Source: Eledone cirrhosa
Taxonomy: Eukaryota
DNA length: 64,000 nucleotides
Direction: 5' to 3'
Assembly: GCA_964016885.1 (NCBI GenBank)
Contig: OZ024753.1
Location: 5,828,001-5,892,000 of the forward strand
Position 1 is the stretch's first letter; each line of letters starts with the position of its first letter. Under the pieces are notes generated by a model that saw only the letters and a program-made list of their open reading frames with translations, did no database searches and had not been told where the DNA came from. A program made the position numbers and the translations under genes. Positions 1,371 to 63,987 of this stretch are shown here, in pieces.

Positions 1371-1586
1371 TTGGTAAAAGGAAAAGAAAATGCTGACAAA
1401 TTGTTCCCAGTGAAAAATAGTTTAATTAGGAATAAGCAAAAATTAGTAATAGTATTGGTTAGTATTCAGTTTTGGTTTTAAGTTTTACCGGTTGCGCATT
1501 TCTAATGCTTTTCAAAAATATTTCGAGATAGAGCGCCCATTGATGTTTGCTCTAATCTGATTAGAGCAAACATCACGGGCGCTCTA
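1371..1586 (-). mobile_element. Short non-autonomous fold-back element (family A), next to (TA)n
   Basis: Terminal palindrome ~1529-1586 (tagagcgccc..tgatgtttgctctaatc-t-gattagagcaaacatca..gggcgctcta). The whole unit recurs inverted at ~59362-59586. Confidence 0.7.
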
Positions 1587-2406
1587 AATTTCTTATCTGA
1601 AAACGTGTGTTGAAACAGATATTGTTATACTTTGGGAGGGTCTTGTTGCCAATAAAAACACACACACCTTCAGTTTACATTAAATTTCCGGTTGGTTGGT
1701 TGGTTTATATATTCATGTATTTCACAGAAACTATATACGAAACTGAAATATTAAACTCCCAGCCATGCCCCGTTCACATTCACTCAGAAATTCATCTCAT
1801 GCATAAATATATTTATATGATGACAGGTATTGCAATAAGGAAATTGGTGCGAATATGCTTCATCAATTTAGGTCTTAATATTAATGAAGTTTTCCTCGTG
1901 ACAATTATTGTATTATACCAGCCTCTGAAGATATGCTGCTGTATATCTGGAAGACATATAATTAATTGGTAAATATATATAAGAGCACTTAAACTTTCTT
2001 CACACAAGAAATAATGAAAAGCAGACTGCAAACGTAAAATTGCACGAATATGAATACAGTCATTCATTGAAGAATAGCCCAAGAGGCACACAAACACACA
2101 CCTAAACAGACATATATAAACTAGCTATGTGCAGGTGAGAGCATATGTATACTTATGTCGTGCACGCGTTATCTAATAGTTTATATACATACGCGTACAT
2201 ATATTCATATCCCAAATATATACACAAACACTCAGTTATATATAAATATCTACATACAAACGTACATATATATATATATATACATGTATGAATATATATA
2301 TACATATCTCTCTCTCTCTCTCTCTCTCTCTCTCTCTCTCTCTCTCTCTCTCTCTCTCTCTCTATATATATATATATATATATATATATATATATATATA
2401 TATATA

Positions 2407-2690
2407 TAAAATATGTAGTTTAGAAAGCAACAACAATGCAGATGGGAAATCTTGAGGTAGGAAGTGAGTGAGAAATAGGAGAAAAGTGAAAATTGAGAGA
2501 AACGAAAACAAAACAAAGGTAGAAGGGTTACAGTAGTGGAGATTAAATCTCCACTACTGTAACCCTTCTACCTTTGTTTTGTTTTCGTTTTTTCGTTTCT
2601 CTCAATTTTCACTTTTCTCCTATTTCTCACTCACTTCCTACCTCGAGATTTCCCATCTGCATTGTTGTGGCTTTCTAAACTACATATTTT
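2407..2690. repeat. Long near-perfect palindrome (~140-bp arms) after (TC)n(TA)n
   Basis: aaaatatgtagtttagaaagc...gtagtggagatt|aaatctccactac...gctttctaaactacatatttt; centre ~2545; few mismatches, one short indel. Confidence 0.9.
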
Positions 2691-2743
2691 ACATATTTCA
2701 CAATGGTTCAAGCAAACTTTAAAACCCTCATATATATATATAT

Positions 2744-2805
2744 ATCTGTTAGAACACGAAAAGTGTGAAACAACAGAATGTTCACTTTTCGTGTTCTAAC
2801 ATATA
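2744..2805. repeat. Small hairpin after (TA)n
   Basis: tgttagaacacgaaaagtg ... cacttttcgtgttctaaca inverted pair. Confidence 0.75.
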
Positions 2806-3330
2806 TGCCTAGCTTCTATAAAAATTTTTCGGGGATAGCCGTGGTGGTGGTGATCGTATGTCATTGGCTAATTTTCAACCAATCAGAGTACCTCTCTCTA
2901 TATCTCTTCCACTGTTACTTACGCCTGTTTCTCTCTATCTGTTCCGTCTCTATATATATCTCTTACTCTTTCGCTTTGCACTCCTCCCCTTCAATACCAT
3001 CTCTCCCCCTCTCTATATATTTGTTACTCTATCGCTGCACGCTCCTCTCCTTCAATATATCAATTACACACGCTTTACACTCCTTTATCCCCAGCGCCCC
3101 TATATATACACCCCCCCTCTCCCGCATCTATATTTTAATGTACCGTTGCACCGTGAATATATGTGTCTATATATATATACATATATATTGTATATACACA
3201 TTCATGTATGTGTATACACACTCATGTATGTATATACACTGGTTTTATGTGTGTATTGTAAATTTGTACTGTTAAAACACGAAACTAACATTCGATTGAC
3301 ACTTTGATTACCTGTACAGGCAATAGTTAT

Positions 3331-3378
3331 TAGAATGCTGTTGAAGTGTGTATATATTTTTGGGGGACATCCTGTATA
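3331..3378 (-). mobile_element. Tc1/mariner-like MITE terminal fragment
   Basis: Reverse complement tatacaggatgtcccccaaaaaatatatacacacttcaacagcattc matches the mini-element at 15840-15915; TA-CAG(G)GTG-type end. Confidence 0.45.
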
Positions 3379-59361: not shown

Positions 59362-59586
59362 TTTTGAGATAGAGTCCCCGTCATGTTTGCTCTAACAGAT
59401 TAGAACAAACATGAGGAGCGCTCTATCTCAAAATTATTTTTGAAAAGCATTAGAAATGCGCAACCGGTAAGACTTAAAACCAAAACTGAATACTAACCAA
59501 TACTATTACTAATTTTCACTTATTCCTAATTAAACTATTTTTCACTGTAAACAATTTGTCAGCATTTTCTTTTCCGTTTACAAATA
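59362..59586 (+). mobile_element. Fold-back element family A, second copy
   Basis: Reverse complement of 1371-1586; palindrome ~59362-59435. Confidence 0.8.
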
Positions 59587-59624
59587 TATCATATCTCGTG
59601 TGTTACACCTCTATTCTTTTAAAT

Positions 59625-62600
59625 ATATATATATATATTATATTAATATATATATAATATATATATAATATTATAATATATATATATATATTATAATATT
59701 ATATATATATTATATATATTATATTATATTTATATATATATATTATATATATTATATTATATTTATATATATATATTATAATATTATATATATATATTAT
59801 ATATATATATATATTATATATATTATAATATTATATATATATATATATTATATATATATATATTATATATATATTATATATATTATAATATTATATATAT
59901 ATATATTATATATATTATAATATTATATATATATATATATTATATATATATATATTATATATATATTATATATATTATAATATTATATATATATATATTA
60001 TAATATTATATATATATATATATTATAATATATTTATATTATAATATTATATATATATATTATAATATTATATATATATATATTATAATATTATATATAT
60101 ATATATTATAATATTATATATATATATATTATAATATTATATATATATATTATAATATTATATATATATATTATAATATTATATATATATATATTAATTA
60201 TAATATTATATATATATATATTATAATATATATATATTATAATATTATATATATATATATATTATAATATTATATATATATATATATTATAATATTATAT
60301 ATATATATATATTATAATATTATATATATATATATTATAATATTATATATATATATATTATAATATTATATATATATATATATATTATAATATTATATAT
60401 ATATATATATTATAATATTATATATATATATATATTATAATATTATATATATATATATATATAATATTATAATATATATATATATATAATATTATAATAT
60501 ATATATATATATATTATAATATTATATATATATATATATATAATATTATAATATATATATATATATAATATTATAATATATATATATATATAATATTATA
60601 ATATATATATATATATATAATATTATAATATATATATATATAATATTATAATATATATATATATAATATTATAATATATATATATATTATAATATTATAA
60701 TATATATATATATATAATAATATTATATATATATATTATAATATTATATATATATATTATGATATTATATATATATATTATGATATTATATATATATATA
60801 TATTATAATATTATATATATATATATTATAATATTATATATATATATATATATTATATATATATATATATTATAATATTATATATATATATTATAATATT
60901 ATATATATATATTATAATATTATATATATATATATTATAATATTATATATATATATATTATAATATTATATATATATATATTATAATATTATATATATAT
61001 ATTATATTATAATATTATATATATATATTATAATATTTTATATATATATATATTATAATATTTTATATATATATATATTATAATATTATATATATATATA
61101 TTATAATAATATATATATATATATTATAATATTATATATATATATATATTATAATATTATATATATATATATTATAATATTATATATATATATTATATTA
61201 TAATATTATATATATATATTATATTATAATATTATATATATATATTATAATATTATATATATATATATATTATAATATTATATATATATATATATATATT
61301 ATAATATTATATATATATATATATTATAATATTATATATATATATATTTTAATATTATATATATATATTATAATATTATATATATATATATTTTAATATT
61401 ATATATATATATATTATATTATATATATATATATATTATATATATATATATTATAATATTATATATATATATATTATAATATTATATATATATATATTAT
61501 AATATTATATATATATATATATTATAATATTATATATATATATATTATAATATTATATATATATATATTATAATATTCTATATATATATATATTATAATA
61601 TTCTATATATATATATATTATAATATTCTCTATATATATATATTATAATATTCTATTTATATATATATATTATAATATTATATATACATATATATTATAA
61701 TATTCTCTATATATATATATTATAATATTCTATATATATATATATATTATAATATTATATATACATATATATTATAATATTATATATATATATATATATT
61801 ATAATATTATATATATATATATATTATAATATTATATATATATATATATTATAATATTATATATATATATATTATAATATTATATATATATATATTATAA
61901 TATTATATATATATATATATTATAATATTATATATATATATATTATAATATTATATATATATATATATTATATATATATATATATATATATATATTATAT
62001 TATATATATATATATATATATATATTATAATATTATATATATATATATATTATAATATTATATATATATATATTATATATATATATATATTATAATATTA
62101 TATATATATATATTATATATATATATATTATAATATTATATATATATATATATTATAATATTATATATATATATATATTATAATATTATATATATATATA
62201 TATATTATAATATTATATATATATATATATATTATAATATTATATATATATATATATATTATAATATTATATATATATATATATTATAATATTATATATA
62301 TATATATATTATAATATTATATATATATATATATTATAATATTATATATATTATGATATTATATATATATATTATATTATATATATATATTATAATATTA
62401 TATATATATATATATTATAATATTATATATATATATATTATAATATTATATATATATATATATATTATAATATTATATATATATATATTATAATATTATA
62501 TATATATATATATATTATAATATTATATATATATATATTATAATATTATATATATATATATATATTATAATATTATATATATATATATATATTATAATAT

Positions 62601-63135
62601 TATATATATATATATTATAATATTATATATATATATATATATTATAATATTATATATATATATATAATAATATTATATATATATATATATATATTATAAT
62701 ATTATATATATATATATATATTATAATATTATATATATATATATATATTATAATATTATATATATATATATTATAATATTAATATATATATATATATATA
62801 TTATAATATTATATATATATATATATATTATAATATTATATATATATATATATTATAATATTATATATATATATATATTATAATATTATATATATATATA
62901 TATTATAATATTATATATATATATATATTATAATATTATATATATATATATATATTATAATATTATATATATATATATATTATAATATTATATATATATA
63001 TTATAATATTATATATATATATATATATATATATATTATAATATTATATATATATATATTATAATATTATATATATATATATTATAATATTATATATATA
63101 TATATTTATATATATATTTATATATATATTTATAT
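59625..63135. repeat. A/T-only satellite built on the palindromic unit tattataata plus (TA)n
   Basis: Seen directly. Confidence 0.95.
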
Positions 63136-63951
63136 ATGTGTGTGTGTGTGGAAGGATTTATGTGTACACCTCTCTCTATGTGTATTGCGTATCAAAATAT
63201 ACAGTTTTAGTCTCATGCAAATCTTTCTTTAAAATGACTTTCTTTCTTTGGGGAGAAGGAAAGAAAAAACGAAAGATCAGTGATAGCATATGAAATGAGA
63301 AACATAACAAAAGACACGGCACCGGCAATGAACCTGATTCTAATAAAGTAGATTTGTATAGAATCTTATAAAATCTCATTTCATCTCATATTCTTCACCA
63401 CACAAATGGGAATAAGAAATAATTTATCTCATACAAAATTCATGAAACGGGTCATTCCTGCATTGAAATATTTTTGAATAACTTTCAGAGACTACAGCAT
63501 TTTTATTAATTCTACAACACTAAGTTGGATACAATACCAAATGGTAACACACTATACTAATAACAATATTTACTGATATTTTCTTTTCTTTCTTTTTATC
63601 CAATTCTTTACGATAAGATGACATAAAGTTAGAAAATCAGTGTTGATATGACTTCTTCACAAGGATGAGCAATGTTATATCGAAACATCTAGATATTTAA
63701 CAACATAAACCGAATATATCTCTATATATTTGGAGAAAAATTCAGCTAAATGAAAATTGAGCAAGGGACATTACTCTTATACCAATACTTAGGAATCTAT
63801 CCGTCTTATATTCATAGAGGCAAACATTATTCAATATATACATATATATATATATATATATATATATATATATATATACAAAATAGCTAACTGAATAGTT
63901 CCTTTCTCTTCGTACACTTTTCTTTCTATTTATCTTCTATTTCGAAATCTA

Positions 63952-63987
63952 TCTTCTGATGAAAGACTAATGTCCGAAACGTTAAGA
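63952..63987 (+). ncRNA. Minimal (dimer-type) hammerhead motif
   Basis: TCTT CTGATGA aa GAC-taat-GTC c GAAA CG T T AAGA: stem I TCTT/AAGA, palindromic AACGTT stem III. Confidence 0.65.

What the first reader, a model, noticed from the sequence alone, without database searches (positions are those of the whole stretch)
1371..63987. Window-wide landscape of unrelated HHR-bearing and fold-back mini-elements
Seen: about ten HHR or HHR-like motifs (6814, 9610, 19906, 20211, 27304, 37498, 43205, 46338, 50786, 63956) in at least seven sequence-unrelated contexts. Also about a dozen fold-back elements (1530, 2407, 6745, 9225, 9375, 19807, 33995, 34784, 37251, 43081, 45362, 47293, 59362), most directly beside (TA)n. 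One HHR follows a PLE endonuclease remnant. Inferred: many PLE-derived ribozyme families insert into, and may seed or expand, TA microsatellites. By eye they would be mistaken for MITEs.
Basis: partly seen in the sequence, partly recalled or inferred. Interest (0 to 1): 0.75.

Follow-up and report, generated by a model that had tools for sequence, protein, structure and literature searches.

The report
Two-armed Penelope retrotransposon insertion scars
The hairpins and self-cutting-RNA motifs in this window are real and are mostly the short ends of many families of a known jumping-gene class (Penelope-like elements) sitting in TA repeats, at a density seen all over this animal genome; their very regular ends suggest that both cut DNA strands likely start copying the same RNA at two fixed spots, which bears on an unsolved step in how these elements insert.

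Summary
Hammerhead motifs: 6 versus 0.025 in 200 shuffles; fold-backs: 15 versus 0-1. Ten of the 13 listed fold-backs continue, in longer genomic copies, into Penelope-like (PLE) coding frames: five Hydra-type families, one Neptune-type, one other. Two more have PLE anatomy without a linked frame, and one (33995) is a LINE end. None is a MITE.

Corrections: several motifs are homologous rather than unrelated; half carry disabling or variant bases; most fold-backs lack an intact ribozyme; family 1530 has none detectable. The window is not special: 5-8.5 motifs per 100 kb elsewhere, roughly 1-2 x10^5 genome-wide by extrapolation. Seeding of TA repeats is not shown.

Added: 65 of 67 head-to-head pairs join one tailed and one tail-less arm. 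The tail-less arm reaches further 5' in 25 of 31 uneven pairs, and in 9 pairs the arms do not overlap. This favours two-ended priming on one RNA over snap-back. Inverted copy, tail, TA targeting and PLE hammerheads are published, and this scan noted the same pattern before, in this genome and in others.

The parts
1371..1586 (-). Family 1530: 3' end of a Neptune-type PLE, tail-less arm abutting (TA)n, with a 35-nt inverted arm; no hammerhead detected in the family 3' UTR
2402..2730 (.). Family 2407 fold-back: tail-less arm left, tailed arm right; turns about 2-6 nt past the predicted cut of a variant hammerhead that longer copies carry; long copies encode RT + GIY-YIG
3491..3533 (-).
6745..6947 (.). 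Family 6745 fold-back, intact type I hammerhead in both arms (cores 6803 -, 6814 +; U-U at the base of stem II), tail on the right; Hydra-type frame 1.7 kb upstream in one long copy (L295)
9146..9342 (.). Family 9225 fold-back: 3' half of a U3-A8 hammerhead in each arm (turn inside loop II), tail on the left; Hydra-type frame in long copies
9374..9797 (.). Family 9375 fold-back, hammerhead at 9610 (+) and a core-mutated mirror copy at 9474 (-), 90-nt tail on the right; Hydra-type endonuclease in long copies
19807..20071 (.). Family 19807 uneven fold-back, minimal hammerhead core at 19939 (-); two fixed 3' ends; no coding frame linked
20136..20466 (+). Solo PLE end related to family 2407, variant hammerhead near 20211-20245 (core positions 4 and 6 changed, stem II with compensatory changes)
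27282..27373 (+). Decayed hammerhead-like PLE end between TA runs (core change at position 5); thin family support
33830..34048 (-). 3' end of an APE-endonuclease LINE with a 26-nt snap-back at its 5' end: a fold-back that is not a PLE
34784..35030 (.). Family 34784 fold-back, turning about 6 nt past the predicted cut of a U4C hammerhead present in long copies; full Hydra-type frame (P0002) in L288
37245..37686 (.). Family 37251 fold-back, intact hammerheads at 37351 (-) and 37498 (+), 80-nt tail on the right; Hydra-type RT and endonuclease pieces in long copies
43079..43385 (.). Older family 9375 copy: short inverted arm plus tailed arm, hammerhead at 43205 with G at the cut position
45360..45547 (.). 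Family 9225 fold-back (half hammerheads), tail on the right
45690..45960 (+).
46131..46461 (+). Family 46338: solo end with minimal hammerhead (A15.1 changed); Neptune-like endonuclease remnant upstream in L238; ends in TA or CA repeats
47222..47522 (.).
50251..51007 (+). PLE 3' remnant: GIY-YIG C-terminal piece (50251-50487), 3' UTR, hammerhead at 50786, end abutting a 5.4-kb TA array
57810..57853 (+). Solo tail-less family 9225 end between TA runs
59354..59620 (.). Family 1530 fold-back with tailed arm abutting a 3.5-kb TA array
63935..64000 (+). Family 46338-type minimal hammerhead at 63956 (G10.1 changed), cut off by the window end

Best explanation
These are short 3' ends of at least nine Penelope-like retrotransposon families inserted in TA repeats, and the fold-backs likely arise because both nicked target strands prime reverse transcription on the same element RNA, one at each of two fixed start sites, after which the two copies would be joined head to head. 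Shown here: family membership, two fixed 3' ends per family, one of each end per fold-back, and TA adjacency. Inferred: the enzyme at the upstream (tail-less) site runs ahead, the one at the downstream (tail) site follows and often stops early, and the copies anneal at short self-complementary stretches. The hammerhead is a passenger of the element's terminal repeat and is not needed for this. Most copies stop in a family-specific zone, probably near the 5' end of a short RNA.
For: Long copies carry PLE frames: P0001 with GIY-YIG at E 1.6e-6; L059 RVT_1 1.9e-8; L079 and L014 weak GIY-YIG; P0002 shows RWR, DKT, CxCX5C, CxxC..E and CxH, the Hydra-clade marks of PMC8557442 section 11. In 1.9 Mb of sequence not fetched for the family in question, 228 of 249 arms of 10 families end at one of two fixed points and 200 of the 228 are followed by TA. 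Of 70 head-to-head pairs, 67 could be classed: 65 tailed + tail-less, 2 both tail-less, 0 both tailed. Of the 65, 34 are even, 25 have the tail-less arm longer, 6 the tailed arm (p 0.0009; 14 versus 3 without family 9225), and in 9 the tailed arm stops at or before the other arm's start. Arms of one locus are closer than arms of different loci in 3 of 5 families (0.4 vs 2.4%, 0.9 vs 1.9%, 1.0 vs 2.2%). PMC11167929 (main text read) shows in vitro that a PLE protein cuts and extends both strands, starts at two sites bounding the tail, and needs no ribozyme activity.
Against: All evidence is from insertion scars; no intermediate or RNA was seen. 6 of 31 uneven pairs go the other way, including both pairs of family 1530. 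Family 9225 supplies 38 of the 70 pairs. Arm similarity was uninformative in 2 of 5 families, and where seen it could reflect one source locus or later homogenisation rather than one molecule. Deletions at palindrome centres after insertion could mimic uneven or non-overlapping arms. PMC11167929 saw no difference in start-site use between strands. The two end positions were read from partly the same data. P0002 and the L295 frame have no Pfam hit at 0.01, so their class rests on motifs and similarity to each other. Families 19807, 47293, 45804 and 27304 have no linked frame.
Confidence: 0.62

Rival explanations
1. Self-priming (snap-back): one copy folds on itself, possibly on an antisense template, and is extended to give the palindrome; the endonuclease then trims one arm to leave the tail on one side (the model of Arkhipova et al. 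2013, PMC3846280; tail by endonuclease resolution, PMC8557442).
For: 34 of 65 pairs are even palindromes; several turns sit on short self-complementary stretches present in the long copies (families 1530, 9375, 6745); arms share variants; the LINE end at 33995 shows that snap-back happens in this genome.
Against: A snap-back arm must be a sub-copy of the first arm: 9 of 65 pairs have no overlap, and the tail-less arm is the longer one in 25 of 31 uneven pairs. Solo copies use both ends too.
Confidence: 0.22
2. Two separate RNA molecules (or two turns of a circular or tandem RNA) serve the two primed ends.
For: Overlapping arms need the same stretch copied twice, which is easier with two templates; circular templates are proposed in PMC4209133.
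Against: Independent templates give no reason for one-of-each ends in 65 of 67 pairs unless the enzyme dimer is asymmetric, nor for the tail-less arm to lead; within-locus arm distance is below between-locus distance in 3 of 5 families.
Confidence: 0.12
3. The elements are DNA-transposon MITEs, or chance hairpins in AT-rich DNA.
For: They look like short inverted repeats flanked by TA; a probable true MITE family exists in the window at 15845-15915.
Against: Centres differ from copy to copy, ends are unequal, and long copies run into RT/GIY-YIG frames; shuffles give 0-1 fold-backs; ribozyme stems show compensatory changes at 12 of 25 pairs.
Confidence: 0.02

Closest known systems
EN+ PLE insertions with inverted 5'-truncated copy and one-sided tail (Craig et al. 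2021, PMC8557442: passages and section 11 read; Arkhipova et al. 2013, PMC3846280: passages read)
   Same: 5' truncation, adjacent inverted copy, tail at one end, microsatellite targets; Hydra clade: short, hammerhead-bearing, inserted in (TA)n, also in molluscs.
   Different: Tails here are about 33 nt in two families but about 70-160 nt in the Hydra-type families (published: 30-40 bp); many insertions are only the two arms (130-440 bp); at least five Hydra-type families coexist at high copy number; one Neptune-type family has no detectable hammerhead.
Minimal and palindromic-helix-III hammerheads of metazoan PLEs (Cervera and de la Pena 2014, PMC4209133: abstract, results, discussion read)
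   Same: Type I topology, short or palindromic helix III, extra base before stem II, many families per genome, mostly solo, U3-A8 variant, opposite-strand pairs 100-700 bp apart.
   Different: Estimated number here (about 1-2 x10^5, my descriptor, extrapolated) exceeds the 9,000 reported for Xenopus tropicalis and is like the 126,247 of axolotl (PMC7229834, passages); family-wide variants U4C, U-U at 10.1-11.1 (both known, PMC3088659, passages) and a position-6 U variant whose activity is unknown.
In vitro anole PLE (Frangieh et al. 2024, PMC11167929: main text read)
   Same: Two start sites bounding the tail, both strands extended, AT-rich target, ribozyme dispensable.
   Different: That paper does not address inverted insertions; the one-of-each pairing and the lead of the tail-less arm are genomic inferences made here. 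There the start sites are not homologous to the target; here the tail-less ends mostly lie at TA-like stretches.
Metazoan non-LTR retrozymes (PMC7229834, passages; bioRxiv 10.64898/2026.07.22.740005, first part and passages)
   Same: Type I hammerheads in short non-coding repeats linked to PLEs.
   Different: Retrozymes are head-to-tail tandem monomers; the window's elements are head-to-head or solo ends contiguous with PLE frames in longer copies.

Membership tests
EN+ Penelope-like element | Single frame with RT and GIY-YIG endonuclease upstream of the repeat end | tested here: met
   Families 1530 (P0001, contiguous with the 3' end in 12 of 15 loci), 2407, 9225, 9375, 34784, 37251, 6745 (1 locus), 46338 (1 locus), 50786. 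Not found for 19807, 47293, 45804, 27304.
EN+ Penelope-like element | Inverted 5'-truncated copy next to the 5' end, with variable turn point | tested here: met
   140 of 249 arms lie in head-to-head pairs; junctions differ between loci; none in family 46338 (0 of 20 arms).
EN+ Penelope-like element | Optional tail at one end | tested here: met
   Two fixed 3' ends in 10 of 10 families examined; one tail in 65 of 67 classed pairs.
EN+ Penelope-like element | Hammerhead in the terminal repeat | tested here: inconclusive
   Present in the other families; not detected in the 3' UTR of family 1530 in 15 long copies, where the only 2 hits belong to neighbouring sequence.
EN+ Penelope-like element | Direct pLTR-ORF-pLTR tandem in full-length copies; target-site duplication | not tested
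   No full-length element was curated; duplications are obscured by TA, one example seen by eye in L007.
Hydra clade of PLEs | RWK-like and DKT motifs, CxCX5C linker, CxxC and CxH around the conserved E and N, (TA)n targets | tested here: met
   All in P0002 (family 34784; RWR for RWK); CxCX5C in 6745, 9225, 9375; CxxC..E and CxH in 37251. No tree against reference Hydra elements was built.
Neptune clade of PLEs | CX2-5CxxC linker between RT and C-terminal GIY-YIG | tested here: inconclusive
   Present in P0001; Nematis shares a linker, and no reference sequences were available for a tree.
Type I hammerhead ribozyme | Conserved core with stems I-III and compensatory changes | tested here: met
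   97% of cells paired, 12 of 25 pairs with changes on both sides, 0 of 500 shuffles reach the covariation score, 7 sequences of the 9610/37498 lineage; the structure was drawn from one row.
Type I hammerhead ribozyme | Self-cleavage | not testable with these tools
   Only 34784 and 2407 turn within 6 nt of the predicted cut; the other families stop elsewhere.
MITE (DNA transposon) | Fixed terminal inverted repeats at both ends around a constant centre | tested here: not met
   Unequal ends and variable centres.
Non-LTR retrozyme | Head-to-tail tandem monomers each with a hammerhead | tested here: not met
   No hammerhead-bearing tandem array among the 71 rows.

The most novel reading that the evidence does not exclude
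One PLE enzyme complex primes both nicked strands at two fixed sites on a single RNA, upstream site leading, in at least two clades and with or without a ribozyme. In addition, short copies launched from inside the terminal repeat act as SINE-like source elements, which has filled this genome with 1-2 x10^5 hammerheads and lengthens TA arrays.
Probability: 0.35. Interest if true: 0.68.

Novelty: new member of a known kind. Interest (0 to 1): 0.42.

Why it matters
How PLEs make their inverted copies and one-sided tail is unsettled (PMC8557442 calls for mechanistic work; PMC11167929 leaves later steps unvalidated). Thousands of young two-arm insertions from many families give countable predictions: one tail per pair, which arm leads, non-overlapping arms. 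The existing in vitro system could test them. In practice, repeat annotation tools would file these as MITEs or unknowns, and the genome may be among the richest in hammerhead motifs. The elements themselves are ordinary members of a known class.

Tried and rejected
Rfam: nothing at gathering score; the E-value scan showed only the best 150 of 707 rows, nearly all microRNA models on TA repeats. The repeat finder was swamped by TA arrays. My first fold-back scan missed several known ones and was replaced. Single-strand folding energies do not separate these motifs from shuffles (11 of 13 with z above -2), as expected for minimal hammerheads.

Idea that copies generally start at the ribozyme cut: rejected as a rule; modal 5' ends are near -41 (9225), -126 and -139 (9375), -44 (6745). 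Idea of an extra G from a copied RNA cap: not supported (family 9225: T 15, C 7, G 7, A 1 before the start). Idea of a spliced 5' exon at the AG before stem I of 6745: junction bases differ between copies. Descriptor hits 46699 and 57118 have no relatives in my loci and are treated as unproven.

Expression: no RNA holder listed. PDB sequence search with P0002: no match. Lunse et al. 2017 on dimer-cleaving PLE hammerheads was not held and is only recalled.

Literature searches for prior description: 'Penelope + twin priming + inverted + retrotransposition mechanism' gave 0 papers; 'Penelope + palindromic + MITE + non-autonomous' gave 4 general papers, listing only; 'cephalopod + hammerhead ribozyme' gave 2 listed, neither on this. 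Subscription papers, Repbase entries and supplements were not seen.
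Full report
Setting. The window lies in a 3.0-Gb animal genome, is 26% GC and about 44% simple repeat. No tool named the organism; an octopus-like origin is my recalled impression only and nothing below depends on it.

1. The observation. An exact-core type I hammerhead descriptor with stem tests finds 6 hits versus 0.025 in 200 block shuffles; a looser version finds 8 versus 0.35 in 100 shuffles. Of the ten listed motifs, four pass outright (6814, 9610, 37498, and '19906', whose core is at 19939 on the minus strand), 50786 has an intact core with a weak stem I, four carry a damaging change against their family (27304, 43205, 46338, 63956), and 20211 has a family-wide variant core. 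In seven sequences of the 9610/37498 lineage, 97% of cells pair and 12 of 25 pairs change on both sides. That supports a real RNA structure and shows these two 'unrelated' contexts are homologous. All 13 fold-backs exist; a census finds 15 versus 0-1 in 10 shuffles (1530 appears). TA adjacency is far above chance (5 of 10 versus 0.38).

2. What they are. Genome searches gave hundreds to thousands of candidate places per family (147-3777; lower bounds, 40 scored each). Longer copies run upstream into PLE frames. Family 9375 leads into an endonuclease, 2407 into RT plus GIY-YIG, 9225 into RT plus endonuclease, 37251 into RT and endonuclease pieces, 34784 into an open 832-codon frame, 6745 into a 433-codon piece in one locus, 46338 into a remnant in one locus, and 1530 into P0001, whose 3' region is contiguous with the 1530 end in 12 of 15 loci. 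Five of these have the Hydra-clade marks listed in PMC8557442 section 11; 1530 has a CX2-5CxxC linker. Families 19807, 47293, 45804 and 27304 have hammerhead motifs but no linked frame in what I fetched. 33995 is the 3' end of an APE-endonuclease LINE with a short snap-back. So 10 of the 13 fold-backs are tied to PLE frames, 2 are PLE-like, and 1 is not a PLE.

The ribozyme is not what makes the fold-back. 9225 and 45362 turn inside loop II of a U3-A8 hammerhead and keep half of it (full form in L201). 2407 and 34784 turn a few bases past the predicted cut and keep none. Family 1530 shows no hammerhead in 15 long copies. Outside the window, 19 of 164 fold-backs held a descriptor-passing motif; 52 matched the window's PLE families, 5 the SINE, and 107 were unclassified, 31 of them from one satellite in L220.

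The window is ordinary for this genome. With tandem arrays masked, descriptor hits per 100 kb were 6.2 in the window (4 hits; the mask hides the 37251 pair), 8.5 in 400 kb of flanks, 5.0 in 220 kb from the largest chromosomes and 8.1 in 360 kb from smaller ones, against nulls of about 0.2-0.6. 60 of 78 hits have a TA run within 200 nt on the 3' side, 22 of 78 on the 5' side, against 23% expected. Fold-backs number 23 per 100 kb in the window and about 14 elsewhere without the satellite.

3. How it likely works. In 1.9 Mb that excluded the loci fetched for each family, 228 of 249 arms of 10 families end at one of two fixed points, 33 to about 160 nt apart, and 200 of those are followed by TA. 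Of 70 head-to-head pairs, 65 join one tailed and one tail-less arm, 2 are both tail-less, and 3 could not be classed. Among the 65, 34 are even, the tail-less arm reaches further 5' in 25 and the tailed arm in 6 (p 0.0009). In 9 pairs the tailed arm stops at or before the point where the other begins, so the arms share no sequence. Arms of one locus are closer to each other than to other loci in 3 of 5 families.

PMC11167929 shows in vitro that a PLE protein nicks and extends both strands, starts at two sites that bound the tail, is predicted to be a dimer, and needs no ribozyme activity. The simplest reading is two-ended priming on one RNA with the upstream enzyme leading, then a head-to-head join (inferred, 0.62). 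Notes of this scan raised this idea before I tested it; the counts are my own. Snap-back self-priming (PMC3846280) explains the even pairs but not the non-overlapping ones, unless centres were deleted later. Against my reading: six uneven pairs go the other way, family 9225 supplies over half of the pairs, and two families gave no signal on arm similarity.

5' ends cluster in family-specific zones that mostly do not match the ribozyme cut; a short transcript from inside the terminal repeat is plausible but untested. On TA expansion: runs next to PLE ends are longer than a length-biased draw (median 21 versus 11-14), but preference for long targets gives the same result, and 20 of 153 ends have no TA run.

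4. Relation to what is known. The inverted truncated copy, one-sided tail, (TA)n targeting and hammerheads of Hydra elements are in PMC8557442. Many hammerhead families per genome, opposite-strand pairs and the U3-A8 variant are in PMC4209133; U4C and U-U variants are in PMC3088659. Differences here are longer tails, many coexisting Hydra-type families, a hammerhead-less Neptune-type family, and a total motif count near the 126,247 reported for axolotl (different descriptor). A recent octopus repeat annotation lists Penelope families but does not mention hammerheads or palindromes in its main text. I found no paper stating the one-of-each rule, but the library lacks most subscription papers, and I saw no supplements.

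5. Verdict. A real landscape of ordinary PLE insertion scars: new members of a known kind. The value lies in the multi-family counts that make the insertion mechanism testable. The scan has reported the same pattern in this genome and in others. Interest 0.42.

Noticed in passing
window 21700-27260 (+): Degraded LINE, GC-rich, with zinc knuckle (E 6e-4) and RT (RVT_1, E 4.7e-10) pieces; looks L1/Tx1-like (recalled).
   Followed up: partly
window 12379-13047, 16505-16713, 27558-27764, 29663-30257, 30574-30913, 40707-41087, 41866-42077, 48891-50034: Many copies of one ~190-nt SINE-like family, often in tandem; one inverted pair at 30577-30656.
   Followed up: no
window 15845-15915 and 3327-3375; L042, L103: Short element with matching terminal inverted repeats flanked by TA in other loci: a probable true Tc1/mariner-type MITE (family name recalled).
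   Followed up: partly
family 9375, L001-L030: At least 19 of 42 truncated arms start with a short AG/CAAG leader absent from all long copies seen, hinting that short fold-back copies themselves served as sources. An unsampled long subfamily would also explain it.
   Followed up: partly
family 9225 long copies (L097, L100, L201): The modal 5' end (-41) falls on TTAGTC, which resembles an initiator consensus (recalled); a U3-A8 hammerhead with a large structured loop II spans it.
   Followed up: partly
window 20211-20245; L059-L080: Family-wide hammerhead variant with U at core position 6 and C or A at position 4, stem II conserved by compensatory change (26 matches); activity unknown.
   Followed up: partly
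window 4026-6747, 31145-39428, 42502-44733, 51008-56447, 59623-63137: All five multi-kilobase TA-derived arrays abut or contain PLE ends; cause and effect not separable.
   Followed up: partly
L019, L021: Flanks on the two sides of the insertion are inverted copies of each other across TA runs (in L021 two 50786-type 3' ends face each other).
   Followed up: no
window 36760-37230 (+): RTE-like LINE fragment into which the 37251 fold-back is set (similar frames in L297, L298).
   Followed up: no
window 2742-2806: Unclassified 24-bp-arm fold-back beside TA with no relative in my loci.
   Followed up: partly
L288:4053-6548: Open 832-codon Hydra-type frame (P0002) with an asparagine-rich stretch between RT and linker, like the inserts described in rotifer Penelope (PMC3846280).
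   Followed up: partly
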